Positions 1 through 12,721 of a stretch of 57,371 nt of DNA are shown here, piece by piece (the first letter of the stretch is position 1; every line of letters begins with the position of its first letter). Under the pieces are notes generated by a model, which saw only the letters and a program-made list of their open reading frames with translations, did not search any database and was not told where the DNA came from. The translations under genes and the position numbers were made by a program. Where the stretch lies: positions 1 to 57,371 of the forward strand of contig WQSB01000002.1 of NCBI GenBank assembly GCA_009788085.1. Reading direction: 5' to 3'. This DNA comes from Defluviitaleaceae bacterium (GTDB lineage Bacteria > Bacillota > Clostridia > Lachnospirales > WQUN01).

Positions 1-1
1 G

Positions 2-1033
2 GAGCTGCCCGCCGCCCTCGACCCGGACGAATTCGACGAGGTCAACAAGGGCCATCACAGAGGAGTGCTGTCGTCGCTGCGGGACGATTACGGTAATCTT
101 ACAACCAAGCGAATCTGCCCGTTTTGCCACAACGATATCCCCCAAAGCGCGGGATTTGCACCCAGCACGATTATCTCCGTGGTGGGCGCGACCCAATCGG
201 GCAAATCGGTGTATCTCACCAGTTTGATTCACACGTTAAAAACCGTTACGCCCCGCAACTTTCCTATTTTCTGTACGCCCATCAGCAACGAAATGGGGCG
301 CAAATTCAAATTCGAATACGAGGACCCGCTAATCGAAAACGGAATGCTGCTTAATCCCACCCAAAAGGAAAAGCAGCAGGAGCCGTTTATTTTTACGTTT
401 TCGTTTTCAGACGACACCAAACCGGAAATTAATATCGCTTTCTTTGACGTGGCCGGTGAGGGTATGGTTGACACATCTTACATGGATATCTACGCCGCTC
501 ATATCCGCAACTCGTCGGGGATTCTTTTCTTGGTTGACCCGTTGCAGTTCCGTTCTGTAGGGCGCAAAATTTTATTAAAAAATAATTTGGATTACGAACT
601 GCGCTTCTCAGACGAGCCCACGGATGTTCTCAGCGGCCTGGTGGAGGATTACATTTACAAGCAGGGGGGCGGCGTTTCGGATATCCCAACGGCAGTTGTT
701 TTGACCAAAACGGATTTGCTGGAGGCCCTGCAAGCCGACGGTGAATATATCCACAAGGACAGTCATTTTTTTGCAAACTACACTCACAAGGGATTTTTTA
801 ATATGCTCGAATTTTACAATATCGACGGCGAAACAGACGAGTTCATCGGCGATGTTGACCCAAATTTTCGAAACGCTCTGAAGCGGCGTTTTTCAGACTT
901 GGGATTTTTTGCCGTTTCCGCGCTGGGAACGCAGCCCGACGGGCAACGAGTGGCATCCTTTACGCCCATTCGTGTGGATGAGCCGTTTTTGTGGCTGCTT
1001 TTCCGGCTGGGTTACATCGAAGGCCGTGATTGA
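2..1033 (+). CDS. P-loop GTPase (TRAFAC-type, DO-GTPase-like), 5' end cut by window edge
   Basis: The frame is open from nt 2, with no stop before the listed start at 65. A CPFC zinc-ribbon-like motif is followed by Walker A GATQSGKS, Walker B/switch II DVAGEG and [NT]KxD as TKTD. Confidence 0.7.
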   Translation, partial: ELPAALDPDEFDEVNKGHHRGVLSSLRDDYGNLTTKRICPFCHNDIPQSAGFAPSTIISVVGATQSGKSVYLTSLIHTLKTVTPRNFPIFCTPISNEMGRKFKFEYEDPLIENGMLLNPTQKEKQQEPFIFTFSFSDDTKPEINIAFFDVAGEGMVDTSYMDIYAAHIRNSSGILFLVDPLQFRSVGRKILLKNNLDYELRFSDEPTDVLSGLVEDYIYKQGGGVSDIPTAVVLTKTDLLEALQADGEYIHKDSHFFANYTHKGFFNMLEFYNIDGETDEFIGDVDPNFRNALKRRFSDLGFFAVSALGTQPDGQRVASFTPIRVDEPFLWLLFRLGYIEGRD

Positions 1034-2153
1034 GCGGCAGTTTTACACACGCGAACGGCGAGGGCTGTTCCGTTCTTCGGAGGGGTATGACAGCGTGGCA
1101 AGGTCTCCGGGTTTGACGGACGCTTTCATAAAGGAAAAAATTCATCCCTATTGCACGTATTCCTCCCCCGCACCAAGGGTACAAACCGTCGTTCATTATC
1201 CCTGCGGAAGAATGCTGCTTGGTCAGGCCGCCTATGTACCCGAGGATTTTACCGGACGGCGGTCTACTTTTTTTTCTCACAATTATGTAATCCCCCCGGC
1301 GATTGCCGGGCTGCTACTGGAGGACATGGCGGGGCTGCTGACAACCCGGTTTGAAACTTCCTATGATATTTCCCTTGATGGCGTGCTTGAGCCGCTGGAG
1401 TTTTTGCCGCGGGATACACACTTGTGCACCGGTTCACTCTTGCCGCAAGTGGAGGAAGGGATAATCTCCAAAATTGCGGAATGCGTTTGCGAGTCCGTAC
1501 AAGCCTCGAAAAAAACCTATGTTCTTGTACCCGATTCCACCGGCGATATGTTTGAATTCGTACGCGGGGTGCTGATTTCGTTATATCAGCGACTGCCGGA
1601 ATGGGTCAAACATCAGCTGGGCTTTTGCACCTTTGCCCGTGAGCCCGATAAAAGAAAGGGCATTCATTTAGTCTTTTTGGTACAACCTTTTTTACGCCCC
1701 ACAGATTCATGCTTTGCCGGGGATTTTATCATACATATAAGCAACGAGGATGAGAATAATAACCGGGACGTTACGGCCGTAAGCGGCGTTTTTGGAGCGT
1801 TTTTGGATTCCCGGATTCAGGCCTTTACAATCGGGCGTTTCTTTACGGAAATGGATTTCTGGCGTGTGCGACTGCCTAGTTACTGTGATATAATCTCAAA
1901 AACGGAGCGGAACTGGCTGGATAAAAAATTAGACAGCTTAACGCTCTCGCAGCTTAGGGAGATTCCGCAAAAATTTATCAAACGCGGGCTGGCCGACGAT
2001 GATTTTTCGATTTATGTGATGCTTTCCATTTTAAAAACAGCGGTTACCGATTTTAATACAGACCCCCGATATCTCTTGGGCAGTTACTTTTTAAGCCCCG
2101 CAAACTATGATAGAATTGCAAAAAATCTGCGCCGCCTTGAAGGAGCAATTTAA
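1026..2153 (+). CDS. GTPase-associated protein, GAP1-N2-like N-terminus (uncharacterised)
   Basis: GTG at 1026 overlaps the upstream stop (GTGATTGA). The N-terminus QFYTRERRGLFRSSEGYDSVARSPGL and the segment GRRSTFFSHNYVIPP resemble GAP1-type partners of double-GTPase systems, recognised from memory only. Confidence 0.5.
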   Translation: MIERQFYTRERRGLFRSSEGYDSVARSPGLTDAFIKEKIHPYCTYSSPAPRVQTVVHYPCGRMLLGQAAYVPEDFTGRRSTFFSHNYVIPPAIAGLLLEDMAGLLTTRFETSYDISLDGVLEPLEFLPRDTHLCTGSLLPQVEEGIISKIAECVCESVQASKKTYVLVPDSTGDMFEFVRGVLISLYQRLPEWVKHQLGFCTFAREPDKRKGIHLVFLVQPFLRPTDSCFAGDFIIHISNEDENNNRDVTAVSGVFGAFLDSRIQAFTIGRFFTEMDFWRVRLPSYCDIISKTERNWLDKKLDSLTLSQLREIPQKFIKRGLADDDFSIYVMLSILKTAVTDFNTDPRYLLGSYFLSPANYDRIAKNLRRLEGAI

Positions 2154-2154
2154 A

Positions 2155-3057
2155 ATGACCATCATACGAACAACCTTTGATTGGGCAGGGGCATTGTACA
2201 GCCGGTGGTTTGCCGATTGGTTGCATGTGCATTTTATAATACGCACCGTTTTGCTTCTTCTGTTAATGTGGCTGATAATTTTCCTTGGGGCGCAGTTGTT
2301 CAAATACGTTTTGCTGCCCCTTGTTTTAATGCTCTATTATCATGTTTTTTTCCGCGCTTGGAACTTTCTGTTTGTGGAAACCCCTCAGGAATGGCTTTAT
2401 TTGCGATATCATTCCAAGGACAAGCCCGACCACGCCCAGCTGTACTCTCGCCTGTGCGACAAGGTCAAAAGGAATCGTTTGATTTTGAAGCATACAAAAT
2501 TTGCCGGCATGATGATTCGCGCGAGACGCCCGGCCTCCGTTTTAATGTTCATTTGTCTTGTGGCGTCTACCCTTTGGATATCGGCCTTTGGCCTGCATCA
2601 GGAATATGCGGCCCCGGCTTTGGTCTTGATTGATAACACGGCCGACAGAGACATGCAGGATTCAGACGTGCCGGATTTGGACTTGCCTCCCGACGAGAGC
2701 AGCAATAACGAAAATGATTTGTACGATTATTATACTCCCGGGGAAGCTGAAGCAGAGCCCACCCCCGGAAGCCATGCAGTCTACGCGCCCGGCACAATAA
2801 ACCCCGCCGGGTGGCCGGCTGAGTCGAATATTAGGCTTTCCTTAACAGAGCAGGGAGCCCAAGGCGCAAGACTGCGCGACGGCCCCGGCATCGCCGGGAA
2901 TACGATTATAGAAATCTTATGGGACGACACATTAGTGACGTATCTTCATTCCTTTGTGCCGGACGTTTATGTAAACGGCTTATACTGGCTTCGCGTTCGC
3001 ACCCCCGGCGGCGCGGAGGGTTATATCAGCAGTCAGCTGGTGGAGGTCGCGGGCTAG
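2155..3057 (+). CDS. Multi-pass membrane protein with acidic linker and C-terminal SH3b-like domain
   Basis: ATG lies 1 nt after the upstream stop (TAAAATG). There are three hydrophobic segments. The C-terminus ARLRDGPGIAGNTIIEILWDD...YWLRVRTPGGAEGYISSQLVEV is typical of bacterial SH3. Confidence 0.6.
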   Translation: MTIIRTTFDWAGALYSRWFADWLHVHFIIRTVLLLLLMWLIIFLGAQLFKYVLLPLVLMLYYHVFFRAWNFLFVETPQEWLYLRYHSKDKPDHAQLYSRLCDKVKRNRLILKHTKFAGMMIRARRPASVLMFICLVASTLWISAFGLHQEYAAPALVLIDNTADRDMQDSDVPDLDLPPDESSNNENDLYDYYTPGEAEAEPTPGSHAVYAPGTINPAGWPAESNIRLSLTEQGAQGARLRDGPGIAGNTIIEILWDDTLVTYLHSFVPDVYVNGLYWLRVRTPGGAEGYISSQLVEVAG

Positions 3058-3071
3058 TGTCCCATCCGACG

Positions 3072-3293
3072 AAAAGCCGAAGGGTTTAGTTTGGAGCTCA
3101 TGAGGCGTGGGAATGCTCGCGCTAACGCTTGCCATGCGATGATTGAGACTGCTCGGGAAGTGCCTGTGCAGGTCTTGCTCCGCAAGCCCGGCGATGGCAC
3201 TAACCCTCGCCTGTCTCACTAATCGCACGACTTCGCTAGTCGCACTCGTCATTCCCACGCCTCATGAGCTCCAAACTAAGCCCTTCGGCTTTT
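3072..3293. repeat. Long palindromic element: 44-bp terminal inverted repeats around a 134-nt partly self-complementary core (MITE-like or structured RNA)
   Basis: Segment 3072-3115 is the reverse complement of 3250-3293 at 43/44 positions, and the one mismatch would be a G-U pair. Inner segments such as GCGATGATTGAGAC/GTCTCACTAATCGC and AGTGCC/GGCACT also pair. Confidence 0.8.
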
Positions 3294-3331
3294 TGCCGGA
3301 TAGGGTGAGGGTGGGCGGTAGGAGAGATAGT

Positions 3332-4852
3332 ATGTATATTGTAAAAGGGCATGAAATGCGCGAATTAGAAAACCGCGCCATGAAAAAATATGCTATTCCG
3401 TCTGTTTTGCTGATGGAAAATGCCGCGCTACAAGTGGTTAAGAACGGGCTTAGGCTGTTGAATGATAGGTCCGCCGGGAATGTAACAGTGGTTTGCGGCA
3501 GCGGCAACAACGGCGGAGACGGACTGGCATCGGCGCGGCTTTTTTATACAAAGGGGCACAATGTGCGGGTGGCGTACATTGGGGATATATCAAAAGCCCA
3601 AGGGGACGTTTTAATAAATTTGCGGATGGTTCAGCAAATGGGCATTCCCATCGAGGCCGACCCGGAAGCTTTGCCGGAGCTAGTAGCCGAATCCCATTTG
3701 GTGGTGGACGCCCTTCTGGGCATAGGCCTGTCGGGCCCGCTTCGCCCGAATTATGCCCGGGCCATAAACGCCATAAATACAGCGACGGTGCCGGTTTTAT
3801 CCGTTGACATCCCCTCTGGCGTGGACGCCGACACGGGAAAAGTCATGGATACCGCGGTTCACGCCCATACAACAGTAACCTTCGGACTGGCGAAAATCGG
3901 GCTGATGGCATATCCCGGCGCGGAATACGCCGGGCAGGTAATAATCGAAGATATTTCCCTTCCAGCGGAGGCGTTGAGCCCACCAGCGGGAGATCATTGG
4001 TTGCAAGCTTTGTGCCAGCCCGACATCGCGGCTTTGCTGCCGAAAAGGCCGGCCCGCTCCAACAAAGGCACCTTCGGTCGCATGTGCGTAATAGCAGGGT
4101 GCCGGGAAATGCCCGGGGCGGCAGTGCTGTGCTGCAAAGCCGCATACAAAGCGGGGGCGGGGTTGGTACACGCCTGCGTGGTTTGGGATGTTGCAAAAGT
4201 GATTCAGTCCTACGCTCACGAGGTCATTACAACAATTTTACCCGAAATTTTGCCCAATTCGGAACCCGACACCGAAGCCGTAGTCCCGCCGCAAGCCGAT
4301 GTAATCGCCATAGGGCCGGGCCTGGGGCGCAATCCCGAAAGCTTTGTTTTCGTGCGGAAAATAATGAACCAAGCCTCTGTACCACTGGTTATTGACGCGG
4401 ACGGCCTAATGGCCATTGCCGATGATATAACCGCCCTTAAATCCATAAAAGTGCCCTGCGTAATCACACCACACCCTGGGGAAATGGCCGCCCTAACCAA
4501 GCTTACGACCCCGGAGGTCACGGGCAATCTAATTGCCATCGCTCAAGAATTTGCCAAAACCCATGGCATAGTGACACTATTAAAAGACGCCCGCACGGTA
4601 ATTGCCTCACCGGACGGACGCACTTTTATAAATCTTACAGGAACACCGGCCCTTGCAAAGGCCGGAACCGGCGATGTCCTAACCGGCGTAATTGCCGCCT
4701 TAATCGCCCAGGGGCTGGCTGCTTTTGACGCGGCGGTGCTGGCTGCATATGTACACGGCTTTGCAGGCGAACTGGCCGCAAAGTCGCTTTCTGTTTATGG
4801 GGTAAATGCTAGCGATTTATTGGAATACCTGCCCTATGCTTTTATGCTGTAG
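3332..4852 (+). CDS. nnr: Bifunctional NAD(P)H-hydrate repair enzyme (epimerase + ADP-dependent dehydratase)
   Basis: The N-terminal YjeF_N-like segment reads MENAALQVV...VVCGSGNNGGDGL. The C-terminal carbohydrate-kinase domain reads GPGLG...TPHPGEMA...AKAGTGDVLTG. SD GGAGAG lies 5 nt upstream of ATG 3332. Confidence 0.9.
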   Translation: MYIVKGHEMRELENRAMKKYAIPSVLLMENAALQVVKNGLRLLNDRSAGNVTVVCGSGNNGGDGLASARLFYTKGHNVRVAYIGDISKAQGDVLINLRMVQQMGIPIEADPEALPELVAESHLVVDALLGIGLSGPLRPNYARAINAINTATVPVLSVDIPSGVDADTGKVMDTAVHAHTTVTFGLAKIGLMAYPGAEYAGQVIIEDISLPAEALSPPAGDHWLQALCQPDIAALLPKRPARSNKGTFGRMCVIAGCREMPGAAVLCCKAAYKAGAGLVHACVVWDVAKVIQSYAHEVITTILPEILPNSEPDTEAVVPPQADVIAIGPGLGRNPESFVFVRKIMNQASVPLVIDADGLMAIADDITALKSIKVPCVITPHPGEMAALTKLTTPEVTGNLIAIAQEFAKTHGIVTLLKDARTVIASPDGRTFINLTGTPALAKAGTGDVLTGVIAALIAQGLAAFDAAVLAAYVHGFAGELAAKSLSVYGVNASDLLEYLPYAFML

Positions 4853-5697
4853 GTATACGGAATACCCATCTGTTGCAGGCGTCCTATTCTTTCGTGTGTA
4901 TTTGGATGGGTTGAGTAAAGGGCTTTTAAAAAAGATTTCTGCGGGCTGTTTCTGCCAGTAGCATCTAACGCCTTGGCCAGCTGAACGCCATACCCTAGTT
5001 GAACGGCATAAGCATCAGCAGCATATTCATTTTCCCGCATCGACCATGATAGGAACAATATACAAAATTTTGTCCACAGCCAAATGATACCTCCAATCAC
5101 TATTCCTACAGCGGCTTTGACCCATGACCGGTTTCTGATTGCGGATATGACGGACCCTGTTGCTATAAGTACAGCAATCCCTCTCAAAATAAGGATAAAC
5201 ACAGTAATGAAAATATTGCCCCCTCCTATAAGCAGTTGTATTTCCGTATGACGATGTGCTAAATGTGCTATTTCATGTGATAGAAGCCCCAAGATTATTT
5301 CATCCGGCAGACGCATCAAACCTTCGGTAATGCAAATAGTCTTTCTGCCGATAGCATAGGCCTTAGCATCCGATGTGTATACTATTCTCAATTCAATCGT
5401 ATCAGCTAGGCCGGGCGTTTTCATTTTCGCCGTCCTATACACAGTTTCAAACAACGGTTCGATTCGTTTTTGCATATCAATCCTTTTTATCTTTTTTGCC
5501 CCAGCAAAAAAGCATAGCACCCATTCTCCAAACGGCGAAAAGGCCGCAAAAATTGACGCGATGTAAATTGCAAATACCACAGCCAAAACTTGAATGCCGC
5601 CACCTGAGAAAAATATTAGGACGGTCATTATATTAAGAAGGAAGAAAACGATTACACCTATGCCGGATTTTTTGAAGAGGTTTTTTGCTATATTCAT
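4834..5697 (-). CDS. M48-family (HtpX-like) integral-membrane zinc metalloprotease
   Basis: The protein has the HEIAHLAHRH (HExxH) motif, several TM segments and a C-terminal STHPNTHERI. Its ATG overlaps the upstream stop (ATGA). Confidence 0.8.
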   Translation of the reverse strand: MNIAKNLFKKSGIGVIVFFLLNIMTVLIFFSGGGIQVLAVVFAIYIASIFAAFSPFGEWVLCFFAGAKKIKRIDMQKRIEPLFETVYRTAKMKTPGLADTIELRIVYTSDAKAYAIGRKTICITEGLMRLPDEIILGLLSHEIAHLAHRHTEIQLLIGGGNIFITVFILILRGIAVLIATGSVISAIRNRSWVKAAVGIVIGGIIWLWTKFCILFLSWSMRENEYAADAYAVQLGYGVQLAKALDATGRNSPQKSFLKALYSTHPNTHERIGRLQQMGIPYTYSIKA

Positions 5698-6386
5698 TTG
5701 TCTTCACCAAATTCTGCCACAAAGTTTATGTATGTTATTGCGTCTCTTGCCATTTCCCGCGTTGCCCCTTCGCTAATGAGCCTGTCAATTAAATTATGCT
5801 TTGTAAAAATATCATTGCCCGCACGGCTTTCTATTAATAAAGCAAGGGCATTAAGCTCAAAAAGCGAAACACTCAACCACCGAATAATACCCCTGCACTC
5901 ATAATCATTTCGCAACAAATCAGACGCAAGTGCCTTAAAGGTACGCGAGCATAAAAACGCTTGGGGATAATCACGATGCATGGTTTGAAGCATACATATA
6001 ATTTTTTCAGAATGTCCATTGTCTACAACGAAAGTATCTTCATCCGGTTCGGGCTGATGGCCCTGTTTAATACAGGTGCTGTCCTCTACATATTTGGGTT
6101 GTCCGCTTCGCCTCTGTAGTAGCCTCATTGCTTCCAACATAGGCCCCGTATCCGGATAACCAAGCTCCGCCGCTTTTTCAAGCCAGTATACGGCACTCGC
6201 ATAATCATCTTCTTTAAGGTAACAATGACTTAGAATAGAATAATAATCGCCCATAGCACATTGGGCGTGAATATCGCCATTATCAGCCATTTGGTTCAGC
6301 TCATTAATGGAATATCTACGCCCTGTGCTAACATCGCAACCAAAAAGCTCCTTATTGTTATTGCTCATCTTTATTTCGATTTTCAT
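5694..6386 (-). CDS. Sel1-like repeat protein with uncharacterised C-terminal domain
   Basis: The N-terminus NGDIHAQCAMGDYY...ASAVYWLEKAAELGYPD is Sel1/TPR-like. The remaining ~130 aa were not recognised. The start is uncertain because there is no clear SD. Confidence 0.55.
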   Translation of the reverse strand: MKIEIKMSNNNKELFGCDVSTGRRYSINELNQMADNGDIHAQCAMGDYYSILSHCYLKEDDYASAVYWLEKAAELGYPDTGPMLEAMRLLQRRSGQPKYVEDSTCIKQGHQPEPDEDTFVVDNGHSEKIICMLQTMHRDYPQAFLCSRTFKALASDLLRNDYECRGIIRWLSVSLFELNALALLIESRAGNDIFTKHNLIDRLISEGATREMARDAITYINFVAEFGEDK

Positions 6387-6398
6387 AAAATATAAATA

Positions 6399-7808
6399 TT
6401 AAAGCTTTCCACGCAAGGTGCTTTTTAGCTTTTCAAACTCTTCCTTCAATTCGGGATTGTTTTCAATTTTCCGCCTTAAATTTGCTTCTTCTACTGATGC
6501 GGAATTATATTTTGATGATACACTATTGCGCCTGTTACTTTGGACGTCGGTTGTATTAATAAGATAGTACCCTGGAACAGCACATGCACCTGAAATGAGA
6601 AGAGAGATTACAATGACCCCACTTCCTCCCGAGAGGGCACCGATAAATGAGAGTAACATAAGGACTGCGATACCTAAGAGCATGAATCCAATGATACGCT
6701 TAATAGTTCTTAGCGCGGGATATTGCTCTTTACTGGCTTCGGCAGCTTTCTCATTAACAATCAGCACTTCTTCTTTTCGTTCTTCATCTTTTTTTCGTTC
6801 CTCATCTTTTTTGCGCTCTTCATCTTTACGGCGTTGTGCATCTTGTGAGAGTTGTTCTTCGCTTGGAAATGCATCTCGTATCAAGTGACTAATGTCCGCC
6901 CCATTCTTTTTCCACCGAGAACCGAGAGCTTTTATTATTTCATCTACAATGCGCGGCTCGGTTGCTTTTGGGCCCTTGGAAATTACCATCCCTAAGAAAG
7001 AGCTAAATTTCTCCTTTGCAGTTGCCAACTCTTGCTCGTGCAACTTCTCCATTGCCGTAATATGCATCGCGGGAAGGTGCGGGGGCGGATTTTTTTTGAA
7101 CAGGGCATGAGCTTTCTCTGCATATCCGATTCGCTTGGCAAGGGCAATAGCGACATTCACATCCGATTTGAAATAAGAATCTACTTGGCCACGGTCATCA
7201 AGACGCGAGTGAGCTTGATATGCAAGACTAATCCCGTTGTACTGCATGTATTCCAACGGGTTTTCAGATTCACTTTCCGCACGATGAACAGCTTCTGTTA
7301 TTAAACGAAAACCTTCTGCGGGGTTAGAAAACTTCACAAGTCCCGGCAATTTACTTATGTGCATGGTATCGGGTGAACCACAATATATTGTGCCAAGTTC
7401 AGCCATCGCTATAATATTTTTGTGGTCATAGACCAGCTTCTTGAAGCATTCAATAACGGTTGCCTCATTATCGCCCTCAATGCGGTTAGCGTACAAGTCC
7501 ATCAGTCCGAAGCGTGCGTGGGAATCCCCATTTTCCATAGCCTTTACTAACCAACGCACCGCTTCTTTAGGATTGTCCTCTATACATACAGGAAAATCAG
7601 AATCATAAAAAGCAGCAAACTCACGCTGGGCAACGCAATGACTTTGTTTTGCCGCTTTCTCCAGCCAGTCAAATGCTTTCTTTGGGTCTTGGTCAAAACC
7701 ATCTTCTCCATACCTGTATGCCCAGCCCAATTCAAATTGGCTTTCCACGTCGTTCTGTTCAGCACGGGTAATTAACTCTTGTTTTTGAGTTTCACTTAAC
7801 ATACGCAC
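6399..7808 (-). CDS. Sel1-like repeat protein with charged KDEER repeat and C-terminal double TM anchor
   Basis: Repeated Sel1 signatures are present (ESQFELGWAYRYG...KKAFDWLEKAAKQ; AVRWLVKAMENGD). These are followed by RRKDEERKKDEERKKDEERKEE and then two hydrophobic helices. SD GGGAGG precedes the ATG. Confidence 0.7.
   Translation of the reverse strand: MRMLSETQKQELITRAEQNDVESQFELGWAYRYGEDGFDQDPKKAFDWLEKAAKQSHCVAQREFAAFYDSDFPVCIEDNPKEAVRWLVKAMENGDSHARFGLMDLYANRIEGDNEATVIECFKKLVYDHKNIIAMAELGTIYCGSPDTMHISKLPGLVKFSNPAEGFRLITEAVHRAESESENPLEYMQYNGISLAYQAHSRLDDRGQVDSYFKSDVNVAIALAKRIGYAEKAHALFKKNPPPHLPAMHITAMEKLHEQELATAKEKFSSFLGMVISKGPKATEPRIVDEIIKALGSRWKKNGADISHLIRDAFPSEEQLSQDAQRRKDEERKKDEERKKDEERKEEVLIVNEKAAEASKEQYPALRTIKRIIGFMLLGIAVLMLLSFIGALSGGSGVIVISLLISGACAVPGYYLINTTDVQSNRRNSVSSKYNSASVEEANLRRKIENNPELKEEFEKLKSTLRGKL
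6781..6834. repeat. 3 x 18-bp in-frame tandem repeat (encodes RKKDEE units) inside CDS 6399-7808
   Basis: The units are TCTTCATCTTTTTTTCGT, TCCTCATCTTTTTTGCGC and TCTTCATCTTTACGGCGT on the + strand. Confidence 0.8.
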
Positions 7809-7830
7809 CTCCCTGTACGGTTATAAAATT

Positions 7831-8214
7831 TTATAGCGCGTCCCGAATAAGCTGACGAACCTCTTTGATGTGGTCAAAGCAGTTGTTACACCTTTTAATC
7901 ATCATAGCGATGCGTTGTTCTTGAGAGTTCTGCTTCTGCAACAATTGTAGAGCATCAAGCCATTGTTCAGCTTTTTGGGTGAGAGCAGGAAGGAATTCAC
8001 CTTCTTGTTCCCGGCGATAATTTTCCATGCTTGCACCTTTTCGCCCCCGACTATAATCGTCTATAGCATTCAGACGGTCTATGGATTTCACTCTGTCTAT
8101 CCCTTCTTTGTACTTACTGATACTAAAGGGCTGTCCGTCAGTAAAAAACAGATGCTCCATATTGGCTATTTCACCTTCAAGAACATTCAGTCTTTCGTTT
8201 ACAGCACTATCCAT
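7831..8214 (-). CDS. Hypothetical helical protein (127 aa)
   Basis: The ORF has SD GGGAGGA 8 nt upstream. It is packed 22 nt from the next gene. I recognised no family. Confidence 0.6.
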   Translation of the reverse strand: MDSAVNERLNVLEGEIANMEHLFFTDGQPFSISKYKEGIDRVKSIDRLNAIDDYSRGRKGASMENYRREQEGEFLPALTQKAEQWLDALQLLQKQNSQEQRIAMMIKRCNNCFDHIKEVRQLIRDAL

Positions 8215-8252
8215 TTATACATCCTCCCACAAAATATAATTTGATGCCTCGC

Positions 8253-8459
8253 TTAAAGCTCGTCTATAACTTTTTTCAACAAAGCAACTGTATGTTCATT
8301 CGCCTTGTATATTGCCATATTAACAAGACTTGCTGGTTCCATGTCTTTGCCAAAAGATTTAACCCAATTCATCCTGACTTCAGACATTTCATTTTGAACT
8401 CCAGACATAAGTTCATCTGCGAGTTTATCAATTGCATCATGTATTTTGTTTTTGTTCAT
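8253..8459 (-). CDS. Small hypothetical protein (68 aa)
   Basis: The internal ATG (MNKNKIHD...) has SD GAAGGGGG 8 nt upstream. The listed start at 8477 lacks an SD. Confidence 0.55.
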   Translation of the reverse strand: MNKNKIHDAIDKLADELMSGVQNEMSEVRMNWVKSFGKDMEPASLVNMAIYKANEHTVALLKKVIDEL

Positions 8460-8764
8460 GTTGGACACCCCCTTCATTTTTTAAATGCTGATGCACTATA
8501 ACATAGACGAGTGTAGCTCTACATTTCAAAACCATTTACGCTACCAGAATATGACCTATTGTCCGCGTTGAACTCACCAACCTTACTGCCGCCAGAAGTG
8601 TAAACGAAAAAGTTTCACTTAAACATAAGAACCTCCACGTATTTCCAGCCACCGTCGCCCTACAAAGCTTTCTATGTAGGACAATTCGTTCGACATGGTA
8701 AGTAAATCGCTGTTTTTTGTTGCTTTTAAACTAAGAACCAGCAAACTCACAGGCTGCCGCTCGT

Positions 8765-8986
8765 TTAATCCATTATTTCTGACCACTTTCGCGCACAACC
8801 CGAACAACCATCATTCTTAACTAGCCTCATCACCATAGCTAATGCCATTTGTTGCCCTTGTGGGATACCACCTGTTTCACGCAAACTTTTTTTAACCAAA
8901 TCAAGGGCTGCTCCGACATTGCCATTTGCTAAACCTCTACATGGGTTACATAAAGTGAAAGCGCGAATTTCGTCAAAAAAGTCCAT
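8765..8986 (-). CDS. Small Cys4 protein (73 aa; CNPC...CSGC)
   Basis: ATG at 8986 (MDFFDEI...) is preceded by AAGGAG 8 nt upstream. That SD sits directly after the stop of the 52-aa ORF. Confidence 0.6.
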   Translation of the reverse strand: MDFFDEIRAFTLCNPCRGLANGNVGAALDLVKKSLRETGGIPQGQQMALAMVMRLVKNDGCSGCARKWSEIMD

Positions 8987-8999
8987 AATTTCATCTCCT

Positions 9000-9158
9000 T
9001 TACAGCCTTGGGCTGTTTGATTTCTTTGCTTCTTCGTAATTGGGGCATTTTTGCCAGTTGCTGCTTGATTCACAGTTGTTTTGCCGTCTGTAATCGTCTT
9101 GCTTTGTGTTGTAAAGCTTACATTCGTGGCCGAGTTCATTGTAATATGGACATTTCAT
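9000..9158 (-). CDS. Small Cys-rich protein (52 aa), absent from the ORF track
   Basis: The sequence is MKCPYYNELGHECKLYNTKQDDYRRQNNCESSSNWQKCPNYEEAKKSNSPRL. SD AAGGTGA lies 5 nt upstream of the ATG. Its stop abuts the SD of the next gene. Confidence 0.55.
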   Translation of the reverse strand: MKCPYYNELGHECKLYNTKQDDYRRQNNCESSSNWQKCPNYEEAKKSNSPRL

Positions 9159-9225
9159 TAATTTCACCTTGCTTGCTCAATATAACAAATCCCTCCAATT
9201 ATGCTACAGCTGGATGTTTACTTAA

Positions 9226-9552
9226 TTAACGTATGTTGTGTAGTCTCTGCAACAGTTCCGTCTTTTTTGTATACTCCTCAGCCGCATGTATCATTTTTTC
9301 CAATTGCGCTTTTACTCCATTTTGTTCATTTATTAAATTATTGAAATTAAGGCTTGAACGCTTCTCTTGCGGAGTATCCCTGTACTTTTGTTCGATAGTA
9401 GATAGAATATCTTCCATCTGTTTCAAATGAGCCTTAACCTCTTGAACTACGTCCCGTTCCGTGCCCACATCTATATACTTTTTTGCAAGCCGTATGTTCT
9501 CATTAAGGATGTCCCTTATACCCTTTAAATCGTGGTTTTCTTGTTTATCCAT
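9226..9552 (-). CDS. Hypothetical coiled-coil protein (about 108 aa; start uncertain, ORF open to 9639)
   Basis: The ORF is charged and helical. ATG at 9552 (MDKQEN...) has GGAG 9 nt upstream, while the listed TTG at 9639 has no SD. Confidence 0.55.
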   Translation of the reverse strand: MDKQENHDLKGIRDILNENIRLAKKYIDVGTERDVVQEVKAHLKQMEDILSTIEQKYRDTPQEKRSSLNFNNLINEQNGVKAQLEKMIHAAEEYTKKTELLQRLHNIR

Positions 9553-9837
9553 TCTAATCCACTCCATTTCTTTTTTTATTTTTTCCTCAATTTTCAAGTT
9601 GGCACTTTCAAAGCCTTTGACGAGGATTCTTTTTAGCAATTTTGCTCTTTTCTGAAAGTATTAACTGTAATGTTTTTAAGACTTAGTGTAGTGCCTCTCA
9701 CCACCATTATCAGACGTCACTATTAACTCACTCCCGGCAATCTCATATTCCTCCATAATAATACATTTTATTTCATCCCTTTGGATGTCTTTGCATCGAA
9801 CAAAATATTAGATTTGTTCATGTTATTTTTGTCGATT

Positions 9838-9882
9838 TCATTTGTTAAACTGCCGCTGTAATCGCGGTGGCGGGTTGCTCAT
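9838..9882 (-). CDS. Possible 14-codon leader ORF (MSNPPPRLQRQFNK)
   Basis: Strong SD GAGGGGAGG lies 5 nt upstream of the ATG, immediately after IR-L. There is no other support. Confidence 0.25.
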   Translation of the reverse strand: MSNPPPRLQRQFNK

Positions 9883-9896
9883 GTGCACCTCCCCTC

Positions 9897-9924
9897 ATGC
9901 AACAAAATATCTAGAAAGTTGCAT
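9897..9924. repeat. Left inverted repeat (IR-L) of candidate invertible switch
   Basis: ATGCAACAAAATATCTAGAAAGTTGCAT is complementary at 25/28 positions to IR-R at 10039-10066. Confidence 0.75.
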
Positions 9925-9949
9925 CCTGTAAAATTCTACAATTCCGGAC

Positions 9950-9982
9950 AAAAAAAGAGGCGAAGCACATTCGTCTTCGCCT
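9950..9982 (-). terminator. Intrinsic terminator inside the invertible segment, functional only for leftward (minus-strand) transcription in this orientation
   Basis: The minus strand reads AGGCGAAG-ACGAATGTG-CTTCGCCT followed by C TTTTTTT. On the + strand the same hairpin is followed by TGGAGC. Confidence 0.7.
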
Positions 9983-10038
9983 TGGAGCTATGTCGTCATA
10001 GGGGAATTGCCAAGTATTTTCGCAGCTTTGCGACATCA

Positions 10039-10066
10039 ATGCAACTTTCTAGATAAAATGTTGCAT
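10039..10066. repeat. Right inverted repeat (IR-R) of candidate invertible switch
   Basis: ATGCAACTTTCTAGATAAAATGTTGCAT is the partner of IR-L. The two repeats flank a 114-bp segment. Confidence 0.75.
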
Positions 10067-10076
10067 CAACATACTT

Positions 10077-10105
10077 ATTATATTAGGAGGATTTTCCAAT
10101 GTCAA
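10077..10105 (-). promoter_or_regulatory. Consensus sigma-A-type promoter firing leftward into IR-R
   Basis: The minus strand reads TTGACA (10105-10100), a 17-nt spacer, then TATAAT (10082-10077). It overlaps the SD and start of the recombinase on the opposite strand. Confidence 0.65.
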
Positions 10106-10665
10106 CTACCCAACCCATAAGAAATTTAGACCACGTCCGTGCCCTTGCAAATTACTATATGGACAAAGGTGAACTTCGAAATTACAGACTTATCGTATTA
10201 AGCCTCCACACAGCGTTGCGGGTGTCCGACTTGCTTTCCCTGCGCTGGTCGGACGTGTATGACTTCAAATTAAACCGCCCCTGCAAAGAGTTCACCCTAA
10301 CAGAGCAAAAAACCGGCAAAAGCAAAACCGTCGCAATCAATCACCATGCGGCAAAAGCATTAAAAAAAGGTGCAGATACAGCCGCACCCTACCATTTTCT
10401 ATTTGCCAATGCGCATTCCGGCAAAGCCTTAGTCCGCGCCCAAGCCTACCGCATAATTCGCAATGCTGGGGAAGCCCTGGAACTCCCTGGGCGCATATCC
10501 TGTCATTCGCTCCGAAAAACCTTTGGATACCATGCATGGAAAAAGGGAATTTCCCCAGCCGTGATTATGGAAATATACAACCATTCTAGCCTAAGCCAAA
10601 CCCGCCGTTACCTGGGCATAAATCAAGATGACCTCAACACCGTTTACATGAGTATGGCGTTTTAA
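10099..10665 (+). CDS. Small tyrosine recombinase (catalytic domain only, FimB/FimE-sized, 188 aa)
   Basis: Catalytic signatures are present: ALRVSDL (Arg), CHSLRKTF (HxxR), HAW and RRYLG (Tyr). SD AGGAGG lies 8 nt upstream. Confidence 0.85.
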   Translation: MSTTQPIRNLDHVRALANYYMDKGELRNYRLIVLSLHTALRVSDLLSLRWSDVYDFKLNRPCKEFTLTEQKTGKSKTVAINHHAAKALKKGADTAAPYHFLFANAHSGKALVRAQAYRIIRNAGEALELPGRISCHSLRKTFGYHAWKKGISPAVIMEIYNHSSLSQTRRYLGINQDDLNTVYMSMAF

Positions 10666-10668
10666 AGC

Positions 10669-10695
10669 AAAAAAAACCGCTAACGCGGTTTTTTG
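10669..10695. terminator. Bidirectional intrinsic terminator between recombinase and atpC
   Basis: The sequence is AAAAAAAACCGCTAACGCGGTTTTTTG, a stem flanked by an A-run and a T-run. Confidence 0.7.
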
Positions 10696-10703
10696 ATTGA
10701 TTT

Positions 10704-11129
10704 TCATGCTTTGCTCTTACCAGTCAATTCCAGCTGAATCTTACAACGCCTTGAATCATTCCGATAAGTGTCTTTTTCAAGTAAGTTTTCAGTTTCGTTT
10801 ATCTTGCGCTCGATTTCTTTTAAGTCTTCGCTGACCTTTTTAACGTCTATGTCCTCCGGCCATTGGGCAGAATCGGACAAAACGGTCACGATGTTGTTGC
10901 TGACATGTGCCACTCCGCCCATTACCGCCATGTGGGACTCTGTGTCGCCGTCGAAAACGCGCAACAGTCCTAAATCCAGCACCATGGAGCAGGGCACCCG
11001 GCCGGGCAAAATGCCCATCTCGCCCGTTGTGCAGCGCAGAATTACCATGTCAACATCACGCTTATACTTATAAGGGCTTTTGTCTGTGGCTTGTGTCGGT
11101 GCGATTACGCGCAGTTCGAGCTTACTCAT
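10704..11129 (-). CDS. atpC: F1 ATP synthase epsilon subunit
   Basis: It is last in the atp operon, and LRVIAP...GEMGILPGRVP...GGVAHVSNNIVTVL is typical of epsilon. Confidence 0.9.
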   Translation of the reverse strand: MSKLELRVIAPTQATDKSPYKYKRDVDMVILRCTTGEMGILPGRVPCSMVLDLGLLRVFDGDTESHMAVMGGVAHVSNNIVTVLSDSAQWPEDIDVKKVSEDLKEIERKINETENLLEKDTYRNDSRRCKIQLELTGKSKA

Positions 11130-11272
11130 GCAAACTATCCTTTCACGACCGCCCAGCAGTCATGCCATAGACAATTCCGTTGAGAATGGGCTCAGCCATC
11201 GCGCAAAGCACCGCCGACGCAGTCGCGGCACGCGCTCGGCTTCACCTTTCTCAACTGAAATCGCTATATAGC

Positions 11273-12721
<1,449 letters not shown>

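What the first reader, a model, noticed from the sequence alone, without database searches (positions are those of the whole stretch)
2..3057. Translationally coupled GTPase / GAP1-like / membrane-SH3 cassette resembling predicted GTPase-centred conflict systems (truncated by the window edge)
Seen: gene 1 is open to the window edge. It has a CPFC ribbon-like motif followed by a complete TRAFAC GTPase motif set (GATQSGKS, DVAGEG, TKTD). Gene 2 starts at a GTG overlapping the stop of gene 1 (GTGATTGA), and gene 3 starts 1 nt after the stop of gene 2. Gene 2 opens with QFYTRERRGLFRSSEGYDSVARSPGL and later GRRSTFFSHNYVIPP. I recognise this as the pattern of GAP1 (GTPase-associated protein 1) N-terminal domains, which partner the 'double GTPase' (DO-GTPase1/2) proteins. 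These were proposed by comparative genomics (Kaur, Burroughs, Iyer, Aravind, eLife 2020) as NTP-dependent conflict systems and, to my knowledge, have not been characterised experimentally. Gene 3 (three TM segments, an acidic linker and an SH3b-like domain) is a possible envelope-facing effector or sensor. Inference only: this may be a defence or conflict module whose 5' part lies off-window.
Basis: partly seen in the sequence, partly recalled or inferred. Interest (0 to 1): 0.7.

Follow-up and report, generated by a model that had tools for sequence, protein, structure and literature searches.

The report
GTPase switch operon with envelope anchor
The window starts inside a four-gene operon from an uncultured termite-gut bacterium: a GTPase, a partner protein predicted to fold like eukaryotic GTPase regulators, a fast-evolving helper protein and a membrane protein that reaches the cell wall. 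It belongs to a family predicted only by computer to act in anti-invader defence, and no experiment has yet tested it.

Summary
Gene 1 (2-1033) scores above Pfam's threshold for DO-GTPase2. Gene 2 (1026-2153) matches GAP1-N2 (96 bits) and GAP1-M. Gene 3 (2155-3057) is a three-TM protein with an outward-facing SH3b domain.

Metagenome contigs identical to the window supply the missing 5' part. It holds 71 more GTPase residues, carrying a first CxxC knuckle, and an upstream 182-aa gene that may be the family's FNIII-type component.

The order helper-GTPase-GAP1 is kept in about 70 Firmicutes genomes. The organism is a termite-gut Defluviitaleaceae bacterium.

New here:
- An AlphaFold model of GAP1 shows a longin domain, an alpha/beta domain and an all-helical domain. 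Its best structural matches are DENND10, TagF, FLCN/FNIP and GATOR1 Nprl proteins. I infer that GAP1 sets the GTPase's nucleotide state.
- The membrane-SH3b protein occurs only in this bacterial clade. It is found after GAP1, directly coupled to the GTPase without GAP1, or alone.

A defence role is not shown. There are no PADLOC hits, the GC content matches the neighbours, the flanks are housekeeping genes, and the GTPase is very conserved. This is a minimal variant of an uncharacterised predicted system. Interest is moderate.

The parts
2..1033 (+). Gene 1: the C-terminal 343 of 414 residues of a DO-GTPase-family TRAFAC GTPase. The first 71 residues lie off-window.
   Evidence: Pfam DO-GTPase2 33.2 bits against a cut-off of 27. 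The full-length protein was recovered from identical contig L001 7635-8879. AlphaFold model pLDDT 84, pTM 0.86, with Foldseek matches to Ras, Rab, Arf, MglA, atlastin and septin at about 1e-5. It is 72-86% identical within Defluviitaleaceae and 45-49% identical to Paenibacillus.
116..127 (+). CPFC, the second CxxC knuckle of the N-terminal zinc-binding module. The first knuckle, CLHC, is off-window at L001 residues 25-28.
   Evidence: Four Cys positions, two invariant and two at least 90% conserved, form two CxxC pairs about 80 residues apart in 24 aligned GTPases. The region is modelled at high confidence.
185..208 (+). P-loop (G1) GATQSGKS.
   Evidence: G, K and S are invariant in the alignment; coordinates.
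446..463 (+). G3/Walker B motif DVAGEG, with the glutamate that characterises DO-GTPases.
   Evidence: Kaur et al. 2020 describe a conserved Glu in the Walker B motif.
704..715 (+). G4 motif TKTD, an NKxD variant that gives guanine specificity.
   Evidence: T, K and D are invariant in the alignment; coordinates.
1026..2153 (+). Gene 2: a short, soluble GAP1 (GTPase-associated protein 1, N2 type) of 375 aa. Its GTG start overlaps the gene 1 stop by 8 nt.
   Evidence: Pfam GAP1-N2 96.4 bits and GAP1-M 29 bits. Alignment of 23 homologues. AlphaFold model pLDDT 84.9, pTM 0.83.
1026..1400 (+). GAP1-N2 domain, predicted to have a longin-like fold (beta-beta-alpha-beta-beta-beta-alpha-alpha). It carries near-invariant R9 and R79 and invariant F82, F83, H85 and N86.
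   Evidence: Secondary-structure order. Foldseek matches of about 90-157 columns to the longin domains of Nprl2/3, Lst4 and TagF, with probability 0.82-0.98 in the best of them. Conservation.
1452..1733 (+). GAP1-M domain, predicted to be alpha/beta.
   Evidence: Pfam GAP1-M at residues 143-236. Strands and helices in the model.
1791..2150 (+). C-terminal all-helical domain of GAP1.
   Evidence: Helices H256-374 in the model. No Pfam hit at E<=1.
2155..3057 (+). Gene 3: a 300-aa membrane protein with three TM segments, a cytoplasmic loop rich in Lys and Arg, an acidic linker and a C-terminal SH3b domain that faces outward.
   Evidence: Hydropathy scan. SH3_3 matched in 28 of 41 family members, best E 3e-07; the window protein itself scores 18.6 bits, below the cut-off of 27. 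93 homologue clusters, all named ones Defluviitaleaceae. Only 28 representatives at E<=1e-30 among 1.84 billion proteins.
2230..2598 (+). Membrane part of gene 3: TM1 2230-2292, TM2 2296-2352, cytoplasmic loop 2353-2529 and TM3 2530-2598.
   Evidence: Conserved residues R67, N70, E75, E79, W141, F145 and G146. Topology is inferred from the positive-inside rule.
2818..3054 (+). SH3b-like domain of gene 3.
   Evidence: hhalign to other SH3b proteins gives probability 94-97%.

Best explanation
The window opens inside a four-gene operon of a termite-gut Defluviitaleaceae bacterium. The gene order is: a 182-aa beta-rich helper, possibly FNIII-like (off-window); a DO-GTPase with a zinc knuckle; GAP1-N2; and a 3TM-SH3b membrane protein. 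It is a minimal member of the GAP1-N2 class of GTPase-centred systems defined by Kaur et al. 2020.

Proposed mechanism:
- The single GTPase is the switch. Its G1, G3 and G4 motifs are intact.
- GAP1 is a three-part regulator resembling the longin / DENN / d-DENN module. By analogy with DENN GEFs, the FLCN, SMCR8 and Nprl2 GAPs, and MglB, I propose that it docks on the GTPase's switch face and sets its nucleotide state. The near-invariant R9 or R79 could act as an arginine finger.
- The fast-evolving helper protein supplies specificity or sensing.
- The 3TM-SH3b protein ties the switch to the membrane and peptidoglycan, as an input (reporting envelope state) or an output.

Shown here: gene structure, family membership, conserved order and coupling, predicted folds, and relative rates of evolution. 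Inferred: the regulator role of GAP1, the membrane topology, and the biological role. On the biological role I lean slightly towards a vertically inherited, envelope-associated regulatory module of this clade rather than a mobile anti-phage island, but the conflict reading is not excluded.
For: - Family: Pfam hits are above threshold. The upstream half was recovered from contigs with 0 mismatches over 13 kb.
- Conserved order: helper-GTPase-GAP1 is kept in about 70 loci from Defluviitaleaceae, Paenibacillus, Bacillus and Neobacillus.
- Coupling: the GTPase stop and the GAP1 start overlap in 52 of 95 loci and are never more than 32 nt apart.
- GAP1 fold: the model is confident (pLDDT 84.9). The N domain has longin topology, followed by an alpha/beta domain and an all-alpha domain. 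Foldseek's high-probability matches are DENND10 (E 6e-4), TagF, the Nprl longin subunits of GATOR1 and Lst4, with weaker matches to FLCN/FNIP2 and C9orf72-SMCR8. All are longin or DENN proteins, and all but TagF regulate small GTPases.
- GTPase fold: nearest to Ras, Rab, Arf and MglA-type G domains.
- Link to gene 3: a 1-nt gap with a strong Shine-Dalgarno sequence in the window. Homologues follow GAP1 in 30 loci. In 5 complete (plus 3 partial) loci they follow a DO-GTPase directly with no GAP1, and the stop and start overlap by 4 nt in L089.
- Same MAG, separate positions: MAG FWF79 has GTPase-GAP1 at locus tags 07695/07690 and the TM-SH3 gene separately at 10045.
- Rates of change: GTPase 72-86% identical within the clade, TM-SH3 42-61%, GAP1 32-58%, helper 30-63%.
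- Native-looking context: GC 0.48-0.52, like the neighbours. Flanks are housekeeping genes. No PADLOC hits. tblastn of the GTPase finds 2 of 72,556 plasmids and 0 of 50,697 phages.
Against: - There is no experimental evidence for any member of the family.
- The longin/DENN resemblance rests on one AlphaFold model. Foldseek E-values are 6e-4 to 3e-2 and whole-chain TM-scores only 0.2-0.3. No sequence-level hit to longin, DENN or Roadblock families appeared at E<=1.
- FNIII identity of the helper is not confirmed. My hmmscan and PDB profile searches found nothing. Only precomputed weak or faint PF25835 hits exist.
- Some features fit a conflict system instead. The flanking genes differ between most related genomes. 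Operon composition varies (4, 3 or 2 genes). The helper and GAP1 evolve fast. One related locus sits beside toxin-antitoxin genes.
- Gene 3 homologues stand alone in about 30 loci, so the linkage is not obligatory.
Confidence: 0.5

Rival explanations
1. It is an anti-invader (abortive-infection type) conflict system, as Kaur et al. proposed. The fast-evolving FNIII-like protein senses a phage component, GAP1 relays this to the GTPase threshold switch, and the membrane-SH3b protein is the effector (membrane damage) or an envelope sensor.
For: - It belongs to the family for which this model was proposed.
- The helper and GAP1 evolve much faster than the GTPase.
- Operon composition and flanking genes vary between related genomes.
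- Related locus L080 lies beside MazE and Phd/PIN toxin-antitoxin genes.
- Membrane proteins of the same architecture, with an SH3b domain of the same subtype, end operons led by TIR or SIR2 genes in other bacteria (L162, L164).
Against: - No cassette or neighbouring protein hits PADLOC.
- The cassette's GC content matches its housekeeping flanks.
- The GTPase is 72-86% identical across the clade, and GTPase and TM-SH3 cluster counts are similar (about 110 and 93), as expected for near-universal genes.
- This GTPase type is almost absent from plasmids and absent from phages.
- Gene 3 has no recognisable toxic or pore-forming domain.
- Only the SH3b domain is detectably shared with the proteins in the TIR and SIR2 operons.
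Confidence: 0.35
2. Genes 1 and 2 form the system. Gene 3 is an unrelated clade-specific cell-wall protein that merely lies downstream in some genomes.
For: Homologues of gene 3 stand alone between housekeeping genes in about 30 loci. Four of the eight Defluviitaleaceae MAG loci have GTPase-GAP1 but no gene 3 downstream.
Against: - There is a 1-nt gap and no terminator between genes 2 and 3.
- Adjacency recurs in 30 loci despite only 42-61% protein identity.
- Gene 3 homologues are also coupled directly to a DO-GTPase where GAP1 is missing; the stop and start overlap by 4 nt in L089.
- Membrane and SH3 modules are a described theme of GAP1-N2 systems.
Confidence: 0.1

Closest known systems
GAP1-N2-type GTPase-centric (DO-GTPase) systems, Kaur, Burroughs, Iyer and Aravind, eLife 2020 (PMC7159879)
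   Same: - A DO-GTPase with a Walker B glutamate and an N-terminal zinc-binding module.
- GAP1 with N2 and M domains, encoded immediately downstream.
- A small, fast-evolving, beta-rich protein upstream, in the position where the FNIII component would be expected.
- A membrane component with an extracellular SH3 domain.
   Different: - One GTPase, not two.
- Four conserved Cys form two CxxC knuckles about 80 residues apart. This looks like one split zinc site rather than two ribbons.
- GAP1 is short and soluble, with no fused TM segment or effector.
- None of the three described accessory themes (tubulin+vWA, HSP70+GrpE, kinase+PP2C) lies within 10 kb.
- The TM-SH3b module is a separate gene found only in this clade, and it also pairs with the GTPase alone.
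Paenibacillus / Bacillus / Neobacillus DO-GTPase loci (L012-L074)
   Same: Same helper-GTPase-GAP1 order, often with a 4-nt overlap. The GTPase is 45-49% identical.
   Different: GAP1 is 730-990 aa. In three of the four examined it has one TM segment at about residues 735-790 and an extracellular tail. In the examined examples a TM-vWA protein and proteins of about 800 aa lie upstream. No homologue of the separate TM-SH3b protein was detected.
Eukaryotic longin/DENN GTPase regulators (DENND10, FLCN-FNIP, C9orf72-SMCR8, GATOR1 Nprl2/3, Lst4) and bacterial TagF
   Same: The predicted GAP1 has a longin-like N domain, then an alpha/beta domain, then an all-alpha domain. This parallels the u-DENN/longin, DENN and d-DENN order described by Zhang et al. 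2012. These proteins are its best Foldseek matches. Like the eukaryotic proteins (not TagF), GAP1 is paired with a Ras-like G domain.
   Different: There is no detectable sequence similarity. Whole-chain TM-scores are only 0.2-0.3. The partner GTPase belongs to a different TRAFAC family and carries a zinc module. GEF or GAP activity has not been tested.
MglA-MglB (Ras-like GTPase plus Roadblock GAP) polarity module of bacteria
   Same: An operon-encoded bacterial small-GTPase-like switch with a regulator from the Roadblock/longin structural group. MglA is among the GTPase's structural matches. It offers a non-defence precedent for such a pair.
   Different: There is no sequence relationship. 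GAP1 is three times larger, with extra domains. The helper and TM-SH3b components have no MglAB counterpart.

Membership tests
DO-GTPase / GAP1-N2 system (Kaur et al. 2020) | TRAFAC GTPase of the DO-GTPase family (Pfam PF19993/PF19975) with a conserved Glu in Walker B | tested here: met
   DO-GTPase2 scores 33.2 bits against a cut-off of 27. DO-GTPase1 scores 16.5 bits, below its cut-off. The motif is DVAGEG.
DO-GTPase / GAP1-N2 system (Kaur et al. 2020) | GAP1 encoded directly downstream of the GTPase, with an N2-type N domain and an M domain | tested here: met
   GAP1-N2 96.4 bits and GAP1-M 29 bits (cut-off 24). The genes overlap by 8 nt.
DO-GTPase / GAP1-N2 system (Kaur et al. 2020) | GAP1-C domain | tested here: inconclusive
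   No Pfam hit for the C-terminal 120 residues at E<=1. The AlphaFold model shows a confident all-helical domain there. The Paenibacillus GAP1 also lacks such a hit.
DO-GTPase / GAP1-N2 system (Kaur et al. 2020) | Protein with rapidly evolving FNIII repeats in the operon | tested here: inconclusive
   A conserved 182-aa protein lies upstream (L001 7082-7630) and is the fastest-evolving component. The only FNIII evidence is precomputed weak or faint PF25835 hits. My hmmscan and PDB profile searches found nothing. No structure prediction was possible.
DO-GTPase / GAP1-N2 system (Kaur et al. 2020) | GTPase with two N-terminal zinc ribbons | tested here: inconclusive
   Four conserved Cys positions form two CxxC knuckles about 80 residues apart. 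They sit in a confidently modelled N-terminal module. This fits one split zinc site. Metal binding is not testable here.
DO-GTPase / GAP1-N2 system (Kaur et al. 2020) | Two paralogous GTPases (present in 38% of systems, so not obligatory) | tested here: not met
   There is one GTPase hit per locus in the window, L001 and all related loci.
DO-GTPase / GAP1-N2 system (Kaur et al. 2020) | Membrane-proximal variable components with extracellular wall-binding domains such as SH3 | tested here: met
   Gene 3 has three TM segments plus SH3b. SH3_3 matches 28 of 41 family members.
DO-GTPase / GAP1-N2 system (Kaur et al. 2020) | One of the accessory themes: tubulin+vWA, HSP70+GrpE, or kinase+PP2C (76% of neighbourhoods) | tested here: not met
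   None appears among the Pfam-annotated genes within 10 kb on either side.
DO-GTPase / GAP1-N2 system (Kaur et al. 2020) | Function in biological conflict (anti-invader) | not testable with these tools
   Only indirect indicators exist, and they are mixed.
Longin / DENN module GTPase regulators | N-terminal longin fold (five-stranded sheet, beta-beta-alpha-beta-beta-beta-alpha-alpha) | tested here: met
   This is met at the level of a predicted structure only. The model has E3-10, E20-26, H32-42, E51-57, E63-71, E81-89, H91-99 and H101-105. Foldseek matches the longin domains of Nprl2/3, Lst4 and TagF with probability 0.82-0.98 in the best matches.
Longin / DENN module GTPase regulators | Central alpha/beta DENN domain followed by a helical d-DENN domain | tested here: inconclusive
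   The domain order fits. Whole-chain matches to DENND10, FLCN, FNIP2 and SMCR8 have E 6e-4 to 2.5e-2, but TM-scores of 0.19-0.31 and rmsd of 14-33 A.
Longin / DENN module GTPase regulators | Sequence homology to DENN, longin or Roadblock families | tested here: not met
   No such Pfam family is hit at E<=1. The profile search of PDB sequences found nothing.
Longin / DENN module GTPase regulators | GEF or GAP activity on the cognate GTPase | not testable with these tools
   This needs biochemistry.

The most novel reading that the evidence does not exclude
GAP1 proteins are true bacterial counterparts of the eukaryotic longin-DENN-dDENN module. On this reading, DO-GTPase/GAP1 pairs are a widespread prokaryotic switch built from a small-GTPase-like protein and a DENN-like regulator. 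In this clade the pair is wired to the cell envelope through a dedicated 3TM-SH3b protein. It would follow that the DENN-type way of regulating GTPases, usually treated as a eukaryotic invention (Zhang et al. 2012), has bacterial roots or a bacterial convergent twin.
Probability: 0.3. Interest if true: 0.75.

Novelty: new variant of a known kind. Interest (0 to 1): 0.5.

Why it matters
GTPase-centred GAP1 systems are known only from one comparative-genomics paper, and nothing is known about how they work. This locus is one of the smallest complete versions: four genes, one GTPase, a soluble GAP1 and a separate membrane partner. That makes it a practical starting point for biochemistry and for heterologous phage-challenge tests.

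If the predicted longin/DENN-like architecture of GAP1 holds, it gives a concrete, testable mechanism (GEF or GAP action on the switch face) for a whole family of uncharacterised bacterial systems. It would also link them structurally to regulators of eukaryotic membrane traffic and nutrient signalling.

Natural two-gene versions (GTPase plus TM-SH3b) suggest which pair forms the functional core in this clade.

Tried and rejected
- Gene 3 as a remnant of the second, membrane-embedded DO-GTPase that lost its G domain. Rejected: a profile search of 1.84 billion representatives found only 28 full-length relatives, all 307 aa or shorter, and none has an insert between the TM segments.
- Gene 3 relatives in TIR- and SIR2-led operons (L162, L164) as proof of a defence role. 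Downgraded: hhalign shows that only the SH3b domain is homologous.
- FNIII identity of the upstream protein. hmmscan on 21 members and a profile search of PDB sequences found nothing, so this stays unconfirmed.
- Exact look-up of gene 2 with the GTG-start sequence found nothing, because gene callers chose a later start. Gene 3 was used for the look-up instead.
- PADLOC and NCBIfam gave no meaningful hits for any cassette protein.
- Profile searches of PDB sequences with the GTPase and GAP1 alignments found no relatives.
- Rfam found nothing in bases 1-12,000.
- Promoter and terminator scans did not exceed shuffled expectation and were not used as evidence.
- The hybrid histidine kinase and REC-GGDEF genes upstream were considered as partners. 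Rejected, because they are absent upstream in all seven related Defluviitaleaceae MAG loci examined.

Full report
**1. Observation**

- Gene 1 is open at the window edge (frame of base 2) and stops at 1031-1033.
- Gene 2 begins at GTG 1026 within GTGATTGA, an 8-nt overlap with gene 1, and stops at 2151-2153.
- Gene 3 begins at ATG 2155, 1 nt later, behind a GAAGGAG Shine-Dalgarno sequence, and stops at 3055-3057.
- The quoted motifs are present: CPFC 116-127, GATQSGKS 185-208, DVAGEG 446-463 and TKTD 704-715. The two quoted GAP1 strings lie at 1038-1115 and 1254-1298.
- Both start codons agree with the N-termini of homologues.

**2. Family tests**

Pfam gives DO-GTPase2 at 33.2 bits (cut-off 27) for gene 1. 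Gene 2 gets GAP1-N2 at 96.4 bits and GAP1-M at 29 bits (cut-off 24). Gene 3 gets a sub-threshold SH3_3 hit at 18.6 bits. Across 41 aligned gene 3 homologues, 28 match SH3_3, with a best E-value of 3e-07. PADLOC and NCBIfam give nothing meaningful.

**3. The missing 5' part**

An exact look-up of gene 3 found metagenome contigs L001-L003 that are identical to the window; L001 and L002 overlap it over 13,057 bases with 0 mismatches. They show that the GTPase is 414 aa. Its missing 71 residues carry a first CxxC knuckle.

Four nt upstream of the GTPase start lies a 182-aa gene (L001 7082-7630). Precomputed annotation gives it a weak Fn3 hit (PF25835). Kaur et al. describe GAP1-N2 systems as a DO-GTPase with N-terminal zinc ribbons, GAP1, a rapidly evolving FNIII-repeat protein, and variable membrane or SH3 parts. 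The locus therefore has the full core of such a system. My own hmmscan and PDB profile searches do not confirm the FNIII fold, so that assignment stays open.

Within 10 kb on either side there are no tubulin, vWA, HSP70/GrpE or kinase/PP2C genes. The flanks are:
- upstream, a hybrid histidine kinase and REC-GGDEF, then rimM and trmD, a MatE transporter, recR, ybaB and dnaX;
- downstream, nnr and, further on, the ATP synthase operon.

**4. Organism and distribution**

Named homologues are almost all Defluviitaleaceae MAGs from guts of higher termites (MAG study PMC7024585). A species-level genome scan with the GAP1 alignment returned 71 loci: 8 Defluviitaleaceae MAGs, one Candidatus Epulonipiscium MAG, and the rest Paenibacillus, Bacillus and Neobacillus.

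phmmer on their ORFs shows the order helper-GTPase-GAP1 in nearly all of them. The GTPase stop and GAP1 start overlap in 52 of 95 loci and are never more than 32 nt apart.

In the Bacilli the locus is larger. GAP1 is 730-990 aa, and three of the four examined have one TM segment near residues 735-790. In the examined examples a TM-vWA protein and proteins of about 800 aa lie upstream. This fits the tubulin/vWA theme of Kaur et al. The Defluviitaleaceae version is a stripped-down form, with a short soluble GAP1 and a separate membrane protein.

**5. Gene 3**

Its family is small and clade-specific. There are 93 clusters, all named ones Defluviitaleaceae. An exhaustive profile search of 1.84 billion representatives found only 28 full-length relatives, none longer than 307 aa. 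Weaker hits match only the SH3b part. This rejects my idea that gene 3 is a second DO-GTPase that lost its G domain.

A metagenome scan followed by phmmer shows three settings for gene 3 homologues:
- after GAP1 in the four-gene operon, 30 loci;
- directly after a DO-GTPase with no GAP1 or helper, 5 complete loci (L089, L111, L114, L116, L148) plus 3 partial ones. In L089 the stop and start overlap by 4 nt;
- alone between housekeeping genes, about 30 loci.

In MAG FWF79 the GTPase-GAP1 pair (locus tags 07695/07690) and the TM-SH3b gene (10045) are both present but lie apart.

I read this as a real but not obligatorily operonic partnership between the GTPase and the membrane protein. GAP1 and the helper then look like regulators that some lineages have lost.

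The predicted topology puts the Lys/Arg-rich loop (residues 67-125) in the cytoplasm and the acidic linker plus SH3b outside. This is inferred from hydropathy and the positive-inside rule.

**6. Structure predictions**

GAP1 (23-sequence alignment) gave pLDDT 84.9 and pTM 0.83. It has:
- an N domain ordered beta-beta-alpha-beta-beta-beta-alpha-alpha;
- a middle alpha/beta domain;
- a C-terminal all-alpha domain.

Foldseek against the PDB returned these best matches: DENND10 (E 6e-4, probability 0.97), TagF from two species, FLCN, FNIP2, C9orf72-SMCR8, the Nprl subunits of GATOR1 (probability 0.92-0.98 over about 100 columns), the Lst4 longin domain and an Asgard Roadblock-Longin protein. Apart from TagF these are GTPase regulators of the longin or DENN kind. 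Unrelated folds such as IDH and Bcs1 appear only at low probability.

Whole-chain TM-scores are low (0.2-0.3). I therefore treat the longin N domain as supported at the level of predicted structure, and the full DENN-like architecture as plausible but unproven.

Kaur et al. never mention longin, DENN or Roadblock. Zhang et al. 2012 describe the DENN module as longin plus an alpha/beta DENN domain plus d-DENN, and treat the GEFs and GAPs of small GTPases as mostly unique to eukaryotes.

The GTPase model (pLDDT 84, pTM 0.86) matches Ras, M-Ras, Rab8, Arl13B, an Asgard Arf, MglA, atlastin, septins and GBPs at about 1e-5, with no close solved relative. Sequence searches of the PDB find nothing.

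Four Cys positions, two invariant and two at least 90% conserved, form two CxxC knuckles about 80 residues apart. This suggests one split zinc site rather than two ribbons.

**7. Mechanism proposed**

- The GTPase is the switch.
- GAP1 binds its switch face through the longin-like domain and sets the nucleotide state, as a GEF or a GAP. The near-invariant R9 and R79 and the invariant FFxHN motif (F82, F83, H85, N86) are candidate contact or catalytic residues.
- The fast-evolving helper confers specificity.
- The 3TM-SH3b protein couples the switch to the membrane and cell wall.

The direction of signalling and the biological output are inferred, not shown.

**8. Defence or housekeeping?**

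Points for a conflict role:
- family membership;
- the helper (30-63% identical) and GAP1 (32-58%) evolve far faster than the GTPase (72-86%);
- operon content and flanking genes vary;
- a related locus lies next to toxin-antitoxin genes;
- TM-SH3b proteins of the same architecture end TIR- or SIR2-led operons elsewhere, although only the SH3b domain is homologous.

Points against a typical mobile defence island:
- no PADLOC hits in the cassette or its neighbours;
- GC of 0.48-0.52, like the housekeeping flanks;
- partial synteny with the closest species, in which the ATP synthase operon also lies downstream;
- similar numbers of GTPase and TM-SH3b clusters in the clade, about 110 and 93;
- only 2 of 72,556 plasmids and none of 50,697 phages encode a detectable relative of the GTPase.

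I cannot decide between the two readings. I lean slightly towards a clade-conserved envelope-associated module.

**9. Novelty and verdict**

No experimental study of DO-GTPase/GAP1 systems exists in the searchable literature. The locus is a minimal, lineage-specific variant of a computationally predicted kind. The added value here is:
- the recovered complete operon;
- the three natural configurations of the membrane partner;
- the predicted longin/DENN-like fold of GAP1.

Interest is moderate (0.5). The most novel reading is that GAP1 is a bacterial DENN-type regulator. I give that a probability of about 0.3.

Noticed in passing
window 3061-3304: A 244-bp element lies 3 nt after the gene 3 stop. 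Its 55-nt inverted-repeat arms are 93% complementary and 134 nt apart. It folds into one long hairpin (-158 kcal/mol, z = -13.8). It has no Rfam match and no second copy in the window, and among fetched loci it occurs only in those identical to the window. It could be a MITE-like insertion or a strong terminator or insulator. The long ORF 3143-4852 (nnr) starts inside it, so the true nnr start is probably downstream, near MYIVKGHEM.
   Followed up: partly
window about 4834-10665: A low-GC stretch (0.37-0.43, against about 0.5 in the flanks) carries, mostly on the minus strand, an M48 peptidase, two Sel1-repeat proteins and several small ORFs with no Pfam or PADLOC hits. It ends with a short (188-aa) tyrosine recombinase on the plus strand. 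In the closest related species (L007) the ATP synthase operon follows the cassette directly. This stretch, together with nnr, therefore looks like an insertion between the cassette and atpC. There are no PADLOC hits.
   Followed up: partly
loci L089, L111, L114, L116, L148 (partial: L090, L113, L134): These are two-gene operons in which a DO-GTPase paralogue is followed directly by the TM-SH3b gene, with no helper and no GAP1. In L089 the stop and start overlap by 4 nt, and the GTPase lacks part of the N-terminal helical insert.
   Followed up: partly
proteins P0188, P0192, P0197, P0212, P0216, P0219, P0224: A Defluviitaleaceae sub-clade of the GTPase (55-65% identical to the window's) has degenerate catalytic motifs. 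Examples are DVADDG, DVPHED and DVTADG in place of DVAGEG, and altered P-loops such as GGSRAGKS. The named members come from MAGs other than those carrying the canonical form. They may be altered or inactive switches.
   Followed up: no
L162 1920-6789 and L164 2850-6891: In unrelated metagenome contigs, membrane proteins with the same layout (N-terminal TM segments, a loop, a TM segment, a linker and an SH3b domain of the same subtype) are the last gene of four-gene operons led by SIR2 (L162) or TIR (L164). Two unannotated proteins (734 and 300 aa; 532 and 347 aa) lie between. L162 also has an integrase, an IS66 transposase, and FRG and DUF4062 genes nearby. These may be undescribed defence operons. 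Only the SH3b domain is homologous to gene 3.
   Followed up: partly
L001 3840-7009 (upstream of the window): A hybrid histidine kinase (PAS-HisKA-HATPase-REC-Hpt) and a REC-GGDEF response regulator end 72 nt upstream of the helper gene. They are not found upstream of the cassette in the seven related Defluviitaleaceae MAG loci examined, so they are probably not part of the system.
   Followed up: partly
L007 1477-3399 (minus strand): A 640-aa vWA-domain protein is encoded about 1.8 kb upstream of the cassette in the closest related species, with a 475-aa gene in between. vWA proteins accompany the Firmicutes GAP1-N2 systems described by Kaur et al. No counterpart lies within 10 kb of the cassette in the window's genome.
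   Followed up: no
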